Source: a virus. Taken from it: 64,000 bases of DNA. The stretch lies in the IMG/VR virus record IMGVR_UViG_3300032174_000075, positions 1 through 64,000 of that record; one strand, written 5' to 3'. The notes below the pieces were generated by a model. The model did no database searches. It was not told the DNA's origin and saw only the letters and a program-made list of their open reading frames with translations. A program made the position numbers and the translations under genes. Positions 47,752 through 63,252 of this stretch are shown in pieces (the first letter of the stretch is position 1; every line of letters begins with the position of its first letter).

Positions 47752-47980
47752 GATTATTTTGTAGGACAAGCTTTACAAGTTGTCAAGTCCGTACTATATC
47801 ACCCGGGAGATGGAGGCCGCAGATGCCTAGTTTGACCGAAAATGAACTGCAGAATCTGCACAGGCTACCGTTCGCGGAACGCAGCCTGATCTCGATGCGG
47901 TGTCATATCGCGCGGAATGAGCCGCGGGCGGTGCGCGACCAAATCCTTCGCGACGCAATCAATAGCTGAGGCCTCTGACC

Positions 47981-48175
47981 ATGACAATTTTTCGAGTGAG
48001 GTTCCAAGTGCAAGGCGGCCATGTGCATTGTCGCCTGTTCGCCGCTGCGCAGCGTGGCGTGACGTTCGCCAAGTGCGGCGACTTCGTCGTGCGCAAAGGC
48101 GCGGAGTTTCGTGACTTTGTGGCGGCTTTCGAGAATGCTGATTCGGAACTATGCACTTGGGAAACCCAAGCCTAG
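47981..48175 (+). CDS. small hypothetical protein
   Basis: GGHVHCRLF...GVTFAKCG. Confidence 0.5.
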   Translation: MTIFRVRFQVQGGHVHCRLFAAAQRGVTFAKCGDFVVRKGAEFRDFVAAFENADSELCTWETQA

Positions 48176-48287
48176 GTCTAGCGGCAAGTTGTGGACACCA
48201 TGACGGACCGTGACCGCTCCTCCACAGCGACTCAGATACCATTCCCGGAATGGTGGCAGCATCGGGCTGCTGATGAAGGGCGTGTAG

Positions 48288-49058
48288 ATGGCGCGCGACA
48301 CGATACTTGGGCTCGGGCTTACGTTCGCGCTTCTGTTTATTCAGTATCGGTATAGAGACATGCCCGCTCCAATTACGGCGGCCGGCATTGCCTTTGGGGT
48401 CGCGCTGATGCTTTGGCCCTACTTGCCCTTTCCACAGAAATACAATGCGCCCATTTTTGTGGCCCTCTGTTTGTTGGCTTTGTGCGTAGGCGTGGCTGAT
48501 TGGGTGTACGAGATATATAGTCAGACGGAGATCACCGAGCGGCCCATTCAAAATGCCCGTCCGGTAACGCCAAAGGCATCACCGCAGCATGCAACCAGCG
48601 CCGCAGGGTCGCCTGTTGTAGCCCCCGAGAAGCCTCACGTTGACCCGCGACGAAGATTCGTCGTTCCACTTCGCGCGTTCTATGCTGAGGGCGATGAAAT
48701 TATTCGCTTTTTGGCCGGCGCAAATACAGAAGATGAATTTAAGAAAAGGCAAGACCGGTTGTGGGATTGGACGACTCGCATCGGACTGTGGACATGCAAG
48801 AACATGGGGGAATCTGCGATGGCCAAAGCAATACCCCTTACACTTGATCCTTATGTTGCCGCCGCCCATCCTATTCCCGGGGAAGAATTGCTCTCTGCGC
48901 AAAAGAACGCGCTGCTGACTATGATAGGCGTTGTTCAAGAAAGATTGTCGTCTCTAATAGAGCACGACACATGGGACCCAATTGGCGAGCCAATCTTACC
49001 AAAGGAAGGGTGTGAGGCTGTGGTTGGAAAGGCAACCGATCCGGCGGCAAAGTTCTGA
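48288..49058 (+). CDS. IS-associated passenger: three N-terminal TMs plus helical domain
   Basis: Lower GC, convergent with the second transposase. Confidence 0.7.
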   Translation: MARDTILGLGLTFALLFIQYRYRDMPAPITAAGIAFGVALMLWPYLPFPQKYNAPIFVALCLLALCVGVADWVYEIYSQTEITERPIQNARPVTPKASPQHATSAAGSPVVAPEKPHVDPRRRFVVPLRAFYAEGDEIIRFLAGANTEDEFKKRQDRLWDWTTRIGLWTCKNMGESAMAKAIPLTLDPYVAAAHPIPGEELLSAQKNALLTMIGVVQERLSSLIEHDTWDPIGEPILPKEGCEAVVGKATDPAAKF

Positions 49059-49061
49059 CGT

Positions 49062-49988
49062 TCATGCAGCCCGCTTCCGAATTGGGTCCTGATACATCAA
49101 CCGTGCGCCTGCGCTAAGTGCAATCGCCTTCATGGTTCGCTCCGCGTCCGAACTCTTGCGCTCGTTCCAGCGATAGGAGAACTCGTTGCAGTAGCGGTGC
49201 AGGTGGGTCTTGCTGACGCTGTGGAATGAGCCGGTGATACCGCGCTTAAGCAGCGCGAAATAAGACTCCGCATCGTTTGTCGAGACGCCGTCGCGGGCAT
49301 ACTCGAACTTCGCATGATTGACCGTCTCGTGGCCGCCCTCGAACCACTTGCCCACGCCACGATAAGAAATGAGCTGGTCGGTCTGGATTTGCGAAGACGG
49401 ATGCACATTGTTGCGGATCGCGTCTTGCAACGTCTTGGCGGTGATATTCGCAATCGGCCAAGAGCGGACGCGCCCGCCACGCTCGACCAATGCGACGACG
49501 GGAGCCTTATCGGTCCCGCGACCTTCCTTGGACTTCTTGCCGCTATGTTTGCGCGGCTTGCCGCCGACATAGGTTTCATCCGCGACCACGATGCCTTGAA
49601 GGAGCCCCTTCAATGGATTTTGCGCCATCGCGTGCCGGATGCGGTGGTTCAAGTGCCACGCGGTGCGATAGGAACCGAGGCCAAGCTGGCGCTGCAATTG
49701 AAGGGCGCTTACGCCTTTCTTTGAAGAACACATGATCGAGAAAGCCATGAGCCAAATCCTGATCGGAAGGTGCGAGGCTTCCATGATCGTGTTCACGGTG
49801 ACGCTGAATTGCTGCGCGCAGCCATTGTTGCATTTCCAAACGCCGGGACGATGCTTCTTGCCCTTGAATTTTGTGTGGCCTTCGACGCAGCCGCAATGCG
49901 GACAAACCGGACCCTTCGGCCAGACGATGCCCTCTAGCGTTTCGCGGGCTTGATCTTCGGTCATTTTGGACAGTTCGGAGAGGTTCAT
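49062..49988 (-). CDS. IS1595-family DDE transposase (second, distinct subgroup)
   Basis: CPHCG...WKC...C, SKKGVSALQLQRQLG, VVADETYVGG, IQTD, TNDAESYF, HLHRYCNEF. Confidence 0.95.
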   Translation of the reverse strand: MNLSELSKMTEDQARETLEGIVWPKGPVCPHCGCVEGHTKFKGKKHRPGVWKCNNGCAQQFSVTVNTIMEASHLPIRIWLMAFSIMCSSKKGVSALQLQRQLGLGSYRTAWHLNHRIRHAMAQNPLKGLLQGIVVADETYVGGKPRKHSGKKSKEGRGTDKAPVVALVERGGRVRSWPIANITAKTLQDAIRNNVHPSSQIQTDQLISYRGVGKWFEGGHETVNHAKFEYARDGVSTNDAESYFALLKRGITGSFHSVSKTHLHRYCNEFSYRWNERKSSDAERTMKAIALSAGARLMYQDPIRKRAA

Positions 49989-50056
49989 CGGTTCGGCCCT
50001 TGATCGTGTATGCAGTATGTAATACATTCGAAGCCGTTGTCAAGCGGAGTGCATAC

Positions 50057-50275
50057 ATGGATTTCAAGAAAGCTACCGATGAGTTGCTGGCCGGGATCAG
50101 CCATCAGGAATTGGCGGATGCCTTGGGCTGTTCGGTGCCAACCGTGCGGCAGGCCAGGCTGGACGAAGGCGCCAAGGCCCGCAGGAGCCCGCCAGAGGGC
50201 TGGCAGGCGGTTGTGGCGAAGCTTGCCAAGGCGCGGGCGGCTGGGCTCCTACGGCTCGCGGGTCGGCTCCAATAG
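50057..50275 (+). CDS. small HTH protein divergent from the transposase
   Basis: SHQELADALGCSVPTVRQAR HTH; GGAG RBS. Confidence 0.75.
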   Translation: MDFKKATDELLAGISHQELADALGCSVPTVRQARLDEGAKARRSPPEGWQAVVAKLAKARAAGLLRLAGRLQ

Positions 50276-50293
50276 GCCGGTTGACAAGAATCG

Positions 50294-50383
50294 TGCCCGC
50301 AGCGAGACTCGAACTCGCACGGCTCCGGCGAAGGAACCGGGGGATTCCAGGTCCCCCGCGTCTACCAGTTCCGCCATACGGGC
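50294..50383 (-). tRNA. tRNA-Leu-type body (class II) with TGG anticodon, C33 and no encoded CCA
   Basis: GCCCGTA TG GCG GAACTGGTAGA CGC G GGGGA CCTGGAA TCCCC CGGTTCCTTCGCCGGAGCCG T GCGAG TTCGAGT CTCGC TGCGGGC A; all stems pair. Confidence 0.8.
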
Positions 50384-50438
50384 CACGATTGAGGGCTTCT
50401 CCGGCCCGGGTAGGACCAAGACCGGAGAGCCTGTCAGC

Positions 50439-50468
50439 GACGCCGCCTTCGGGCGGCGTTTTGCTTTC
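50439..50468 (+). terminator. intrinsic terminator-like hairpin
   Basis: GACGCCGCC-TTCG-GGCGGCGTT followed by TTGCTTT. Confidence 0.65.
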
Positions 50469-50653
50469 TAGAGGCTGCTAAGGCGGTTCCATGGGCGAAT
50501 CTCCTGGGGTTGCCTTCGGAGATTGGCGAGACGGGATTTCGCCGTCGAAATCCGCGCGTAATTCGCCGCCATTTCGCCGCCGATTTTGGCAAGCATTGAT
50601 TTCAAAGAGTTTTTTAGATCGAAACCCGCCGGAAGGTGTCGAAAATTCGCCAC

Positions 50654-51778
50654 TTAGACGTTCTTTGCGGTTGGCTTCCGCCCCCTTTTTAGGGTGCCTG
50701 TACCGCGAAGTTTGCGAATCGCCGCTCGGGTTACAGATTTCCCTGGAAACATGCCTTCCGCCGATTTCCACGCATGGTCTTCTGTTTGCTCGGCCTCAGT
50801 AAAAAGCTTGGTGTAGAGCGCGTACCATTCTTTCAGGTGGCCTTCTGCTACCGGTCGCCCGTTTTCTTCTTCTTGTTCTGCGATCTCTGTCGTTGGCGAA
50901 GGATCGGGAGCCGCGGAAGGTCCCGCTTGAGGATTGAAGTCTTTCGGAAGCAAAGCGCGAACGCCGTTTGGTTCAAATCTAACGCCGCAATACCTCACCG
51001 TCGTAGGGTCGGCTACCAGTCTACTGGTCGGATCAAGGTAGATTGTCGCATCGCCGGTTTTCCAAAAGCTGTGCTTCGAATCTATACCCTGAATGTGACC
51101 CCAAAAGTCGCCGTCAATAGGCACGAACTCGGATAGTTCGGGTGGGTTGAATCCAGTTTTCCACGATTCTATGGCAGCTGCAGATTTGAGGACACTGCCT
51201 CGCAAGCGCTCCATAATTGCGGTCACGGCCGCTTCCGCACCTAGCGCCCGTTGAAGGACAGCCAACGACTCGTTCGGTGCCAGCCACGCAAGGAACTCTT
51301 CGGGCGAGATGGTTTTGTCAGGCGCGGTTTCGGTGCGCACCGGGAGGTCGACCGTCGCGACCTTCTCTTTTTGCGTTGGCAATATTGGAAATGGCTTCGG
51401 CAAATCAGCAATCATTGCGCTGATGCCAGCGGGATCAAATCGTATGCCAAATACCCTTACCGTTCGGTGCATAGAATGCTTTGAGCCGGCGAAAAGATGA
51501 AGAGAGAAATTGATGTCGGCTGTATCCCACCAGTCGGGGGATTTGCTTGACACTTGAGACCAATACCTTTGAGGAATGAGAAACCCTAGTTTGAGTTCAG
51601 TCGGATTTTCAAATGCTGCGGATTTGGAAGCTGCTCGTATCTGTCCCCCTTTTAGACGTTCCAGAATCGCGCGCGACGCAACACCAATATCCGGAATGCG
51701 CTCTTGAATAAGGGTCAAGGCCTGTCTGGGTAAGAGCCAGGTAACGAGCTCGTCGGCTGCTAAGCCGCTATCTGACAT
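50654..51778 (-). CDS. hypothetical protein with two tandem homologous domains and a C-terminal HTH-like tail
   Basis: Start MSDSG at 51778; duplicated W....AL...AI.ERL.G...W...W.T.D...G.RF.P.G motif. Confidence 0.65.
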
Positions 51779-51895
51779 TCCCCACTCCGGCAGGGCTCCG
51801 AGATGTGAGAGGGGAAGCGCGCCGGAGTGCCGCGCTTGTCGGATGGCCGTCCTATCCCCTGCACAAGTTATAGCTGAATCGGGTATGCTTGGGAC

Positions 51896-52027
51896 ATGGC
51901 AAAAGCGAAAACCAAGAAGCCGCCAGCCGAGAACAAGCCCATTGGGTTTGAAGACTTTGTCCGCGCCGCCATGGCGACAGGGAAGCCGCCAAAAGCCAAG
52001 CCCAAGAAGCGGAAGGCGAAAAAATGA
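51896..52027 (+). CDS. 43-aa basic peptide
   Basis: MAKAKTKKPPAENKPIGFEDFVRAAMATGKPPKAKPKKRKAKK*, ATGA-coupled to the next gene. Confidence 0.5.
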   Translation: MAKAKTKKPPAENKPIGFEDFVRAAMATGKPPKAKPKKRKAKK

Positions 52028-52314
52028 GAACCTATGGCGCGGTTGCGGTCGCAATCATTCTGGCTAGCTGTGGCGGTCCATCCAAAAAGCAGGACGTGGC
52101 TTCCTGCAACCTGGAAGCCCTGCGGGTCTATAGCCATGAGCACGGCCCCGACCTAAGCGGCCTCATCGGCCAATACACGGCCACCTGCATGGAGGCGAAG
52201 GGCTACAAGATGACCTTCACGGCGAGAGAATGTGCCGCCCATGGCGGCGACTTCTTGCTCCAGGAAATTGAAGCAGACTGCTACGTCAGGGAAAATTCCC
52301 TTTGGGCACAATAG
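52024..52314 (+). CDS. small lipoprotein
   Basis: Lipobox LASC; CMEAKGY motif. Confidence 0.65.
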   Translation: MRTYGAVAVAIILASCGGPSKKQDVASCNLEALRVYSHEHGPDLSGLIGQYTATCMEAKGYKMTFTARECAAHGGDFLLQEIEADCYVRENSLWAQ

Positions 52315-52318
52315 GTTG

Positions 52319-52683
52319 ATGCCGGTTTGCGAAGTGCATAGTTCCGTCCGAAGAAACCCTGCGCCGAATGTCCATGGCGTCGCGATGTAAAGCCTGGCCG
52401 CTTTCCGCCAGAGAGATACCGCGCCTTGGCATGCACTGCTGAGGATATGAGCAGCCACATCTTCGCGTGTCACAAGAGCGCGGACGACAAGCCTACCGCC
52501 TGCGCAGGATTTATCCTTCGTGGCGCGGATCACAATTTGTCCTTGCGCCTCGCATATTGCCATGGCGAAGTGGGCGAGATATCGGATGGTGGCTATCCGC
52601 TTTTCGAGAACTATCGGCAGATGGCACATGCGAACGGGGTGAAGCCTAATGACCCCGCGCTTAGAAACTGCAGGGATCGTTAG
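52319..52683 (+). pseudogene. DUF6283-like Cys-rich gene with an apparent 1-nt frameshift near the 5' end
   Basis: PCAECPWR...FACH...CAGF frame lacks its own start (TAG at 52339); ATG 52319 is one base out of frame. Confidence 0.55.
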
Positions 52684-53354
52684 AGAGTTCGCCATGGCGA
52701 AAGACCAATACCCCAAGGACTACAACCCTCCCGAACGCGGCACGTGCGAAGTGTGCGGCTATGTCACGAAGGGCTGGACGAAGAAGTGGCTGGCGCGCTG
52801 TCCCAAGCACTGGCAGGCGCTATTGCCCGAAGGCCATCTCGGATCGCTTGCATGACTTCACCGCTTGATCAGATGATCCTAGCCGCTGTCCGCTGTACCA
52901 AGTGCGGCGCGCAGGGCTATGGAAAATGCGGTTGCTGGACTCGGTGCCAGAAGTGCCAATGCATGTACGAAACCGGGAAAGAGTGTAGGCGCTGTGCTGG
53001 CGAGCCTCTGACGATCGTCGCCTCGACGAGCAAGCCGAGCAGGCGAAAGAGAAACCGGGCATAGCGCCCGCGTTATACTCACTCCGCGCCCTGCGTATAC
53101 ACGCTGACTTTCACTTAATCCTTTTCGGGCCATGCTTTGTCAAGAGGTAGACGTTGCCTTCGCTATCCGTCATGCAAAGTACGTCATCGGCGCCGACCTG
53201 ATTTCGTGGTTCTGAGTCGAAGCATGGCACAGTTGCTCGCGGGCCAGCCGCAGTCGTAGTTGTAGTTCGTCGCTGTTCAGTGACCCGCTGTCCGCATCCT
53301 AATATCGCCACAGCAATAGCGCAGAATGCAGCATAGCATAGGACGCGGATCGCG

Positions 53355-62340: not shown

Positions 62341-63252
62341 CTAATCAGTCCAACTGACCGTACCGACAGGCGTTGTCCCGTTCGCTTCGTGCTGCGCCAT
62401 TTCTTCGATGTAGGCGAGCGCCCAATCATCCGGGATCGCGCCGTAGTTCTGCTGCGGCCAGCCAGGATGCGACATGTCGTGGATCAAAGAGGCCGCTCCA
62501 GCAAAACCGTATTTGTCTTTCAGCTTCCATCCGGCGGCACCAGCCATGTTCACGAGATGGCCAGCCGTGCACATTGGCGTGTTGCAGATATTCGGCTCCG
62601 GCGTCGGGCGTTCTGGCCCGAAGGTCGATTGCTTGAATGCCCGCTTCTTCGCTTGAATGTCAGCCAGAAGATGCGTGTAGGGTTTTTCGAGGACAGGGAT
62701 ATCTCCGAACGCCGCTCTCAGGGCGCTCGGGGTCCAGCCCGCCGCGATCAGGGCGCTCGGGGTCCAGCCCGCCGCTCTCAGGGCGCTCGGGGTCCAGCCC
62801 GCCGCTCTCAGGGCGCTCGGGGTCCAGCCCGCCGCTCTCAGGGCGCTCGGGGTCCAGCCCGCCGCGATCAGGGCGCTCGGGGTCCAGCCCGCCGCGATCA
62901 GGGCGCTCGGGGTCCAGCCCGCCGCTCTCAGGGCGCTCGGGGTCCAGCCCGCCGCGATCAGGGCGGAGAATTGGCGGCTCGCCATCAAAGCCAATTCGTG
63001 CCGTGTAAATTCCTTCGCCATTGTCATTCCTCTCTCGCCTGAGTGGGCGGGGGGGGGGTAGGCTAGAACGTCGTTGTCGTTATATTTTCCGGCTGGGCAT
63101 GTCGTGAAGAAATGCTCCTCGACGCCACGCCTCATAACTGCCATGTTGACAATCGCGTCGGCGTTCTGCTCGCTCTTGTTTCTTTCAAGAACGCGGACGT
63201 GATGCGGCGCCCTGATCTCCACTTCGATCACGTCAACCATGGACATCTTCAT
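62341..63252 (-). CDS. repeat protein (AAGWTPSAL[R/I])x8.5; probably two genes joined through a C10 run
   Basis: Internal RBS and ATG at about 63027; C-terminal C.TPMC.AGH domain. Confidence 0.65.
   Translation of the reverse strand: MKMSMVDVIEVEIRAPHHVRVLERNKSEQNADAIVNMAVMRRGVEEHFFTTCPAGKYNDNDVLAYPPPAHSGERGMTMAKEFTRHELALMASRQFSALIAAGWTPSALRAAGWTPSALIAAGWTPSALIAAGWTPSALRAAGWTPSALRAAGWTPSALRAAGWTPSALIAAGWTPSALRAAFGDIPVLEKPYTHLLADIQAKKRAFKQSTFGPERPTPEPNICNTPMCTAGHLVNMAGAAGWKLKDKYGFAGAASLIHDMSHPGWPQQNYGAIPDDWALAYIEEMAQHEANGTTPVGTVSWTD
62711..62965. repeat. 30-bp tandem repeat, 8.5 copies, two variants
   Basis: GCCGC(TC/GA)TCAGGGCGCTCGGGGTCCAGCCC; order on + strand R I R R R I I R I(partial). 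Confidence 0.97.

What the first reader, a model, noticed from the sequence alone, without database searches (positions are those of the whole stretch)
50281..50468. tRNA with leucine identity elements but a proline (UGG) anticodon
Seen: a complete 90-nt cloverleaf on the minus strand with a Leu-type D arm, A15:U48, a long variable arm and A73. The anticodon loop reads CC-TGG-AA, against CT-TAA-AA or CT-CAA-AA in Leu tRNAs with this GGGGA/TCCCC stem. All stems are intact, so the changes concentrate in the loop. U33 is C, CCA is not encoded, the flanks (AATCGT/ACGATT) extend the acceptor stem, and two more hairpins lie 5'. Established: bacterial LeuRS largely ignores the anticodon. Inference: a Pro-to-Leu mistranslating tRNA, an anticodon-nuclease-resistant decoy, or a repurposed tRNA-like RNA.
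Basis: partly seen in the sequence, partly recalled or inferred. Interest (0 to 1): 0.75.

Follow-up and report, generated by a model that had tools for sequence, protein, structure and literature searches.

The report
Transposon-borne leucine-type tRNA reading proline codons
The odd tRNA is real: it is built like a leucine tRNA, carries a proline anticodon, and rides inside a 4.2-kb jumping gene in a soil phage whose transposase gene keeps the matching CCA codon at two fixed positions, so the element seems to decode part of its own gene with a private tRNA.

Summary
Window 50294-50383(-) is an intact 90-nt class II tRNA with a leucine-type D arm, A15:U48, A73, loop CCUGGAA and no encoded CCA.

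It is not a lone phage tRNA. It is cargo of a 4,203-bp IS1595-family transposon (48144-52346, 23-nt terminal inverted repeats).

When relatives were chosen by transposase alone (160 loci), 22 carried a leucine-type tRNA next to the transposase. Their anticodons were UGG 16, AGG 3, UUA 1, GUC 1 and GGA 1. None had a leucine anticodon. The stems covary strongly, so the gene is not decaying.

The anticodon matches fixed codons in the element's own transposase:
- CCA in 39 of 43 proline codons at three alignment columns, against 19% elsewhere.
- CCU in AGG elements.
- A stop codon at the same site in both UUA elements.

The window's transposase has exactly two CCA codons, both at these sites.

My best reading is that host LeuRS charges the tRNA and that it recodes those codons, with general Pro-to-Leu misreading as a side effect. 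Charging and its effect on the protein are inferred, not shown.

This scan found the family at least eight times before on other DNA; one such report partly failed a later check. I found no paper describing it.

The parts
50294..50383 (-). Leucine-type class II tRNA gene with anticodon UGG (50347-50349), C33 (50350), A37, A73 (50294) and no encoded CCA
   Evidence: ARAGORN; Rfam tRNA 48.3 bits; family model R1 81.2 bits; sequence read
48144..52346 (-). Whole IS1595-family transposon (4,203 bp) that carries the tRNA. No 8-bp target duplication is seen: the flanks are tcttcgga and aatcagca.
   Evidence: Inverted repeats found; same architecture in 8 other loci; right end 96% identical to that of L349
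52324..52346 (-). Left terminal inverted repeat (CGGAACTATGCACTTCGCAAACC, read on the - strand)
48144..48166 (+). Right terminal inverted repeat (CGGAACTATGCACTTGGGAAACC)
   Evidence: 96% identical to the end of the related element in L349
49062..50027 (-). IS1595-family DDE transposase, 321 aa, downstream of the tRNA on the same strand
   Evidence: Pfam PF12762 (1.5e-36) and PF12760 (3.1e-12); 79% identical to the L349 transposase
49614..49616 (-). CCA codon for P138 of the transposase (motif AMAQNP). Family-fixed site, alignment column 436.
49083..49085 (-). CCA codon for P315 of the transposase (motif RLMYQDP). Family-fixed site, alignment column 738. This and P138 are the only two CCA among the gene's 12 proline codons.
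50436..50465 (-). First 5' hairpin. On the + strand it is followed by a T run, so it resembles an intrinsic terminator for the opposite strand.
   Evidence: the same A-run plus GC hairpin lies upstream of the L349 tRNA
50394..50431 (-). Second 5' hairpin, directly upstream of the tRNA
50654..52054 (-). Cargo ORF of 466 aa, function unknown, not shared with other elements of the family
   Evidence: no Pfam family reached its curated cut-off (only a weak sub-threshold DUF6597 match) and no PHROG hit; no relative in viral contigs; not in any shared cluster
48288..49058 (+). Cargo ORF of 256 aa with a hydrophobic N-terminal region, function unknown

Best explanation
The gene encodes a functional tRNA with the body of a bacterial leucine tRNA and a proline anticodon (UGG). 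It is a passenger of a 4.2-kb IS1595-family transposon that has landed in a soil phage. It belongs to a widespread family of such transposon-borne tRNAs.

The proposed mechanism is as follows. The host leucyl-tRNA synthetase ignores the anticodon and charges the tRNA with leucine. On the ribosome the tRNA competes with host tRNA-Pro for CCA codons. The element keeps CCA at two fixed sites of its own transposase (P138 and P315 here). The transposon can therefore make a leucine-substituted form of its transposase whose share depends on its own tRNA. This would be programmed missense recoding, comparable in logic to the frameshift control of IS1 and IS3 transposases. Low-level Pro-to-Leu misreading of host and phage proteins would be a side effect, possibly damped by C33.

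Shown here: the intact tRNA, the transposon cargo, the family, the conserved anticodon and the codon-anticodon co-variation. Inferred: charging with leucine, and what the substitution does to the transposase.
For: 1. The tRNA is real and leucine-type. Canonical tRNA-Leu genes of five host genomes score 70-85 bits on the family model, the same range as family members. Each of those genomes has a full tRNA-Leu set with encoded CCA, plus one extra UGG species without CCA.
2. It is cargo. An IS1595 transposase lies next to the tRNA in 15 of 36 loci found by the tRNA alone. Terminal inverted repeats enclose both tRNA and transposase in 9 loci, including the window.
3. The unbiased test used 160 loci chosen by transposase only. 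They hold 22 adjacent leucine-type tRNAs: UGG 16, AGG 3, UUA 1, GUC 1, GGA 1, and no leucine anticodon.
4. The tRNA fold is under selection. 98.4% of cells pair, 18 of 20 pairs show double changes, and the covariation score is 0.72 against 0.19 in shuffles.
5. Codon matches anticodon. In 24 UGG elements CCA fills 39 of 43 proline codons at columns 237, 436 and 738, against 45 of 238 elsewhere (p 8e-20). Columns chosen on 14 elements were confirmed on 10 others (17/18 against 18/85, p 6e-9). AGG elements have CCT at 5 of 5 such sites against 2 of 38 elsewhere. Both UUA elements have a stop codon exactly at column 738 (TAA in L489, TAG in L234). Relatives without a tRNA but with 5-kb flanks lack CCA there.
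6. Charging must be anticodon-independent. The ochre-suppressor tRNA L141 has nearly the same body as the UGG tRNA of L349, the window's closest relative.
7. Literature: E. coli LeuRS uses the A15-U48 pair, G18G19 and A20a and not the anticodon according to PMC9976931 (the role of A73 is from my own knowledge). Yeast tRNA-Leu with UGG is leucylated in vivo and harmful (PMC11028032). Nematode class II tRNAs with non-leucine anticodons are charged only with leucine (PMC3333845). Natural mistranslators often lack U33 (PMC11415595).
Against: - No aminoacylation or expression data exist; no RNA run holds the sequence.
- In relatives without a tRNA, the residues at the fixed sites are Pro, Thr, Asn, Gly, Ser or Asp, and hardly ever Leu. 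Leucine is therefore not the ancestral residue there.
- The C-terminal tail after column 738 is short and variable. L434 ends at that site without a suppressor, so the effect on the protein is unclear.
- Two elements carry UGG on other bodies with CCA at the same sites: a serine-type body in L394 and a class I body in L381. The inserted amino acid may therefore not be what matters.
- The match is statistical, not absolute. L300 has no CCA, and L457, L400 and L505 lack it at column 738.
- CCA makes up about 21% of proline codons in this phage, so efficient misreading would be costly.
- An earlier report of this scan making the same claim was marked 'part of it fell' on a later check. Which part failed is not stated.
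Confidence: 0.55

Rival explanations
1. It works as a proline tRNA. Host ProRS charges it through G35, G36 and A73, and the transposon supplies its own decoder for CCA codons placed at control points of its transposase. This would be gating by a private tRNA, like bldA and UUA codons in Streptomyces, with no amino-acid change.
For: The fixed sites are proline or turn positions in relatives. 19 of 22 element tRNAs keep NGG. About 40% of members have G37, as true tRNA-Pro does. G35, G36 and A73 are bacterial proline determinants (PMC9976931).
Against: The window tRNA has C72, A15:U48 and A37, where bacterial ProRS uses G72, G15:C48 and G37 (PMC9976931). G1:C72 occurs in 43 of 45 members, whereas true tRNA-Pro genes in the same data start C1:G72. 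Sister tRNAs on the same body carry UUA, GUC or GGA, and a stop codon sits at the same transposase site in the UUA elements. Hosts already decode CCA, so a private proline decoder would add little.
Confidence: 0.2
2. Its main role is proteome-wide Pro-to-Leu mistranslation of host or phage proteins, as stress diversification or host damage. The codons in the transposase would be incidental or merely tolerated.
For: The tRNA has a leucine body with a proline anticodon. Non-U33 occurs in known natural mistranslators (PMC11415595). The family spreads across many phyla on mobile DNA.
Against: This reading does not predict site-specific enrichment of the cognate codon, its switch to CCU with AGG, or a stop codon with UUA. 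Other proline sites of the same transposase genes still use CCA at 19%, so there is no general purge.
Confidence: 0.15
3. It is a non-translational RNA: a decoy for an anticodon nuclease or other tRNA-directed toxin, or a regulatory tRNA-like RNA.
For: Related elements carry toxin-antitoxin-like or tRNA-related cargo: an MqsA-like antitoxin, XRE plus M78 peptidase, a Schlafen AlbA_2 protein, and PIN/VapC toxins in plasmid relatives. Some members have an altered T loop with U55C. Mukai et al. raised this idea for allo-tRNAs (PMC5389517).
Against: Codon-anticodon co-variation with the element's own ORF implies decoding. The window copy has a standard T loop, A73 and an intact fold. A decoy would have no reason to avoid leucine anticodons.
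Confidence: 0.07
4. It is a decaying tRNA-Leu pseudogene or an assembly error in the loop.
For: C33 is rare and CCA is not encoded.
Against: All stems are intact and covary across 45 diverse members. The same loop occurs in L360, L246, L277 and L328, and in related contigs from three other studies. An independent assembly of the source run is identical.
Confidence: 0.02

Closest known systems
Allo-tRNAs and polycistrons of irregular tRNAs of Acidobacteria and soil metagenomes (Mukai et al. 2017, PMC5389517)
   Same: They are natural bacterial tRNAs whose anticodon does not fit their identity. They are candidate missense or nonsense suppressors, occur in soil bacteria, and are sometimes found near transposon-related ORFs and toxin-antitoxin genes.
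   Different: Allo-tRNAs have an 8/4 or 9/3 acceptor/T architecture and mostly serine or alanine identity. This tRNA is a standard 7/5 leucine-type. That paper does not mention UGG, tRNA-Leu bodies, IS1595 cargo or any match to transposase codons.
Nematode nev-tRNAs (Hamashima et al. 2012, PMC3333845)
   Same: They are class II tRNAs derived from tRNA-Leu that carry non-leucine anticodons. They are charged only with leucine in vitro and decode the foreign codon as leucine in vitro.
   Different: They are eukaryotic and chromosomal, with Gly or Ile anticodons. They are not on a mobile element and have no linked target gene.
tRNA-ProX family of Streptomyces and Kitasatospora (PMC10404621; review PMC11415595)
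   Same: [quoted passage not shown]
   Different: The arrangement is the mirror image: a proline body with Ala, Asn or Thr anticodons, paired with a dedicated ProRS isoform. Here a leucine body carries a proline anticodon, there is no dedicated synthetase, and the gene is transposon-borne.
Cargo-carrying ('transporter') insertion sequences of the IS1595 family
   Same: Both have a DDE_Tnp_IS1595 transposase with a zinc ribbon, terminal inverted repeats and passenger genes between them.
   Different: I found no paper linking IS1595 to a tRNA passenger. Here the tRNA is the only recurrent cargo, and it is matched to codons of the transposase.
Programmed recoding of transposase genes (frameshifting in IS1 and IS3) and phage suppressor tRNAs that read in-frame stop codons (from my own knowledge)
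   Same: A mobile element makes its key protein through a non-standard decoding event, and in the phage case carries the tRNA that does it.
   Different: Here the recoded codon is mostly a sense codon (CCA or CCU), the tRNA is encoded by the transposon itself, and only two or three sites are involved.

Membership tests
Bacterial tRNA-Leu (LeuRS substrate) | Class II shape with a long variable arm | tested here: met
   6-bp variable-arm stem; scores 81 bits on model R1, which canonical tRNA-Leu genes match at 70-85 bits
Bacterial tRNA-Leu (LeuRS substrate) | A73, the A15:U48 pair, and G18G19 and A20a in a Leu-type D loop (A15:U48, G18G19 and A20a from the E. coli identity set in PMC9976931; A73 from my own knowledge) | tested here: met
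   Read. The D arm is identical to that of a canonical tRNA-Leu(GAG). A73 is invariant, and A15 and U48 are nearly invariant, in 45 members.
Bacterial tRNA-Leu (LeuRS substrate) | Leucine anticodon (NAG or YAA) | tested here: not met
   The anticodon is UGG. None of 22 element-borne members has a leucine anticodon.
Bacterial tRNA-Leu (LeuRS substrate) | Actually charged with leucine | not testable with these tools
   Needs an aminoacylation assay
Bacterial tRNA-Pro | Anticodon G35 G36 and discriminator A73 | tested here: met
Bacterial tRNA-Pro | G72 (C1:G72), G15:C48, G37 and class I shape (PMC9976931) | tested here: not met
   The window tRNA has G1:C72, A15:U48, A37 and a long variable arm. 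True tRNA-Pro genes in the same loci start C1:G72.
IS1595-family insertion sequence | DDE_Tnp_IS1595 transposase with an N-terminal zinc ribbon | tested here: met
   PF12762 at 1.5e-36 and PF12760 at 3.1e-12
IS1595-family insertion sequence | Terminal inverted repeats | tested here: met
   23-nt repeats at 48144-48166 and 52324-52346; related repeats in 8 other loci
IS1595-family insertion sequence | 8-bp target-site duplication | tested here: not met
The flanks tcttcgga and aatcagca differ.
Allo-tRNA | 8/4 or 9/3 acceptor/T-stem architecture | tested here: not met
   The tRNA has a standard 7-bp acceptor stem and 5-bp T stem
Transposon-borne leucine-type tRNA family with a non-leucine anticodon (this scan's own family; no paper describing it was found in the searches run here) | Lies inside the inverted repeats of an IS1595-type element, and the anticodon is cognate to codons at fixed transposase columns | tested here: met
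   The window's two CCA codons are at columns 436 and 738.

The most novel reading that the evidence does not exclude
A transposon controls or diversifies its own transposase through a private, mis-acylated tRNA. The element carries a leucine-accepting tRNA whose anticodon co-evolves with two or three 'signature' codons (CCA, CCU or a stop codon) in its transposase gene. This would be programmed sense-codon recoding encoded in cis by a mobile element. It would also spread a source of genetic-code ambiguity across bacterial phyla and their phages.
Probability: 0.45. Interest if true: 0.9.

Novelty: new variant of a known kind. Interest (0 to 1): 0.8.

Why it matters
Natural tRNAs whose anticodon contradicts their identity are rare and are mostly known from single lineages. 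This one is a diverse family that moves on transposons through Acidobacteriota, Gemmatimonadota, Planctomycetota, Verrucomicrobiota, Actinomycetota, Alphaproteobacteria and their phages.

Its anticodon tracks particular codons of the transposase next to it. If the tRNA is leucylated, this would be the first case I know of in which a mobile element carries the tRNA that recodes sense codons in its own gene. That would be a new way of regulating transposition, and a natural, portable orthogonal-like tRNA and codon pair.

It also matters for annotation. Standard tools call these genes tRNA-Pro.

The hypothesis can be tested directly with ordinary assays in harmless soil bacteria.

Tried and rejected
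- **Lone phage tRNA.** Rejected: the tRNA lies inside the transposon's inverted repeats.
- **IS merely targets the 3' flank of a tRNA gene.** Rejected for the same reason in 9 loci.
- **Transposase needs CCN read as Leu at conserved leucine positions.** Rejected: there is no Pro at the 11 conserved-Leu columns in tRNA-bearing elements. The coupling lies at other, variable sites.
- **Exact anticodon arm.** No match in viral contigs.
- **Neighbouring 466-aa ORF.** No relatives in viral contigs; no Pfam family above its cut-off and no PHROG hit.
- **DNA search of the region against isolated phages.** No match.
- **Protein search against isolated phages.** Two unannotated fecal contigs only.
- **Plasmid relatives of the transposase.** Mesorhizobium, Roseomonas and Methylobacterium plasmids at 39-47% identity carry no family tRNA.
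- **Leader-trailer pairing as a family feature.** Not supported.
- **Flanking partial ORFs at the transposon ends.** No Pfam hit, so the disrupted phage genes could not be named.
- **RNA evidence.** No RNA holder is listed, so nothing can be said about expression.
- **Pattern false positives.** Many hits to the D-arm-plus-TGGAA pattern were group I intron-containing tRNA-Leu(UAA) genes or chance coding matches.
- **One script call returned no answer** and was repeated.
- **tRNAscan-SE isotype models.** Not available here.

Full report
**1. The observation**

The 74.8-kb record that holds the window is a viral record with a single tRNA gene. ARAGORN places it at 50293-50383(-) with anticodon tgg. 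Rfam's tRNA model scores 48.3 bits over 50294-50383, although the fast whole-window scan missed it.

- a leucine-type D arm;
- the A15:U48 pair;
- a long variable arm;
- A73;
- loop CCUGGAA with C33;
- no encoded CCA;
- a leader and trailer that can pair;
- two strong hairpins 5' of the gene, the first of which looks like a terminator for the opposite strand.

Logan's independent contig of the source run is identical. Related contigs from three other studies cover the loop without any difference.

**2. It is not alone**

I scanned viral contigs for the D-arm motif followed by TGGAA. This found six more intact leucine-shaped tRNAs with UGG. Their stems are unrelated to the window's but are compensated.

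I also scanned for the motif with any non-A35 anticodon. The D arm is shared by phage tRNAs of several identities. Among A73, long-arm bodies, UGG is the commonest foreign anticodon, followed by UUA.

The same pattern found 24 intact members in the species-representative bacterial genomes, spread over many phyla. Five host genomes each hold a full canonical tRNA-Leu set, all with encoded CCA, plus one extra UGG species without CCA.

**3. The context is a transposon**

I clustered the ORFs around 36 tRNA loci. One protein recurred in 15 of them: the IS1595-family transposase that lies 267 nt downstream of the window's tRNA.

Terminal inverted repeats with a shared core (CGGAAsTATG...) enclose both tRNA and transposase in nine loci. 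In the window the repeats lie at 52346-52324 and 48144-48166, which defines a 4,203-bp element. The element holds:
- a 466-aa orphan ORF;
- the tRNA;
- the transposase;
- a 256-aa ORF with a hydrophobic N-terminal region.

The flanks show no target duplication. The metagenome contig L349 carries a transposase 79% identical to the window's. It has the same gene order, a right end 96% identical, and a tRNA with the same acceptor stem but compensated anticodon and T stems and loop CUUGGGG.

Other cargo varies between elements: XRE plus M78 peptidase, a DNA methylase, a Schlafen-like protein and an MqsA-like antitoxin. The tRNA is the only recurrent passenger.

**4. Unbiased test of the anticodon**

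The first scans required TGG, so they could not test whether the anticodon is conserved. I therefore fetched 160 loci by transposase similarity alone and searched them with a covariance model of the family.

Twenty-two of these loci carry a leucine-type class II tRNA beside the transposase:

| Anticodon | Count |
|---|---|
| UGG | 16 |
| AGG | 3 |
| UUA | 1 |
| GUC | 1 |
| GGA | 1 |
| Any leucine anticodon | 0 |

Loop positions 32, 33, 37 and 38 vary while NGG stays. The window's loop CCUGGAA recurs in L360, L246, L277 and L328.

Across 45 members, 98.4% of helix cells pair and 18 of 20 pairs show compensatory changes. This rules out decay.

tRNA-bearing elements are concentrated in one half of the transposase tree. 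Many apparent absences in that half are on short contigs.

**5. Coupling to the transposase**

I first tested whether tRNA-bearing transposases have proline codons where relatives have conserved leucine. They do not.

Earlier notes of this scan claim that the anticodon matches fixed codons of the transposase. One of those reports later partly failed a check, so I tested the claim myself on 154 aligned transposases.

- The cognate codon sits at column 738 (motif GKRLMYRxP) in 20 of 28 tRNA-bearing genes. CCA occurs there in only 6 of 116 genes without a detected tRNA. Columns 436 and 237 behave alike.
- Within the 24 UGG elements, CCA fills 39 of 43 proline codons at these columns, against 45 of 238 elsewhere (p 8e-20).
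- Columns picked on 14 genome and metagenome elements were confirmed on 10 viral ones (17/18 against 18/85, p 6e-9).
- The AGG elements use CCT at 5 of 5 such sites, against 2 of 38 elsewhere.
- Both UUA elements have a stop codon exactly at column 738, followed by a short open tail.
- Close relatives with 5-kb flanks and no tRNA lack CCA at these sites.
- The window's transposase has 12 proline codons. Its only two CCA codons are P138 and P315, which are these sites.

The match is strong but not absolute. It also holds for two elements whose UGG tRNA has a different body (L394, L381).

**6. Which amino acid?**

This step is inferred, not shown.

For leucine:
- The leucine identity elements read from the sequence (A73, the A15:U48 pair and a Leu-type D loop) are all present (PMC9976931, plus my own knowledge for A73).
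- Bacterial proline determinants G72, G15:C48 and G37 are absent in the window copy.
- The ochre-suppressor sister tRNA on nearly the same body must be charged independently of its anticodon.
- Leucine tRNAs given foreign anticodons are leucylated in yeast and in nematodes (PMC11028032, PMC3333845).

Against a simple reading:
- The fixed sites are proline or turn positions in relatives, not leucine positions.
- The C-terminal tail seems dispensable.
- The phage uses CCA for about a fifth of its prolines.

**7. Comparison and novelty**

The closest published systems are:
- allo-tRNAs and irregular tRNA polycistrons of soil bacteria (PMC5389517);
- nematode nev-tRNAs (PMC3333845);
- the tRNA-ProX family (PMC10404621).

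None of these is a 7/5 leucine-type tRNA with a proline anticodon on an IS1595 element, and none is matched to codons of a neighbouring gene. Searches for such a link found nothing.

This scan has met the family at least eight times on other DNA. It also noted the 4.2-kb element in this genome.

**8. Verdict**

The tRNA is real and is conserved transposon cargo, and its anticodon is tied to its own transposase. The mechanism, leucine insertion at signature codons, is the best-supported reading at about 0.55. It needs biochemistry to confirm.

Noticed in passing
L269, L273, L274, L278, L280, L290, L345 (genome loci); L006, L027, L088 (viral loci): These loci hold tRNA-Leu genes interrupted right after U34 by an insert of well over 100 nt that starts GGAA, like the classic group I intron site of tRNA-Leu(UAA). 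L006 instead has a 32-nt hairpin insert in the anticodon loop. These inserts caused false hits to the TGGAA pattern.
   Followed up: partly
L148, L170, L195, L220 (viral loci): These are phage tRNAs with a GUU (Asn) anticodon and G73, but with a long variable arm and the same D arm as leucine tRNAs. They look like class II asparagine tRNAs.
   Followed up: no
L011:1614-1687, L012:8567-8640, L509 (next to the UGG tRNA), L482:9773-9845, L397:44-114: A second odd tRNA often lies next to the leucine-type one. It is class I (71-75 nt) with an ACU, GCU or AGU anticodon, and ARAGORN calls several of them 'Ser'. It may be a second family of mismatched tRNAs on the same elements.
   Followed up: no
L394:4415-4822: Three odd class II tRNAs lie beside one transposase. 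One has a serine-type body (G73) with UGG, and two carry GAG. That transposase still has CCA at columns 237 and 738.
   Followed up: partly
L248, L284, L394 (T loops): Several members have UCCGA instead of UUCGA in the T loop (U55 replaced by C). L328 has an even more altered T loop together with the CCUGGAA anticodon loop.
   Followed up: no
L246:7517-7680 and the same place in L268, L277, L294: Four Gemmatimonadota genomes share a conserved block: a hairpin, the UGG tRNA and a small lysine-rich ORF (MGKKK...GPKPETLKIEGDW...RGKP) whose codons change at third positions. The flanks outside the block are unrelated.
   Followed up: partly
L540 (Roseomonas marmotae plasmid), L541 (Methylobacterium oryzae pMOC1): Plasmid-borne relatives of the transposase without the tRNA carry a PIN/VapC-family toxin gene two genes downstream. 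That toxin family is known to cut tRNAs.
   Followed up: no
window 50294-50383: The whole-window Rfam scan at gathering threshold returned nothing, although the tRNA scores 48 bits against a gathering score of 29 when the region is scanned alone. The speed filters lost it.
   Followed up: yes
window 62650-63009: A tandem array with a 30-nt period has at least nine overlapping 120-nt register copies at 62-98% identity.
   Followed up: no
window 47865-48143 and 52347-52716: Open frames run across both transposon ends and there is no target duplication. Phage DNA may have been lost or rearranged at the insertion. Neither partial frame has a Pfam hit.
   Followed up: partly
L349:1950-2327: Just outside the related element's right end lies a gcrA-like gene (MNWTDDRVEQLKNLW...). 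This points to an alphaproteobacterial or alphaproteobacterial-phage setting for the window's closest relative.
   Followed up: no
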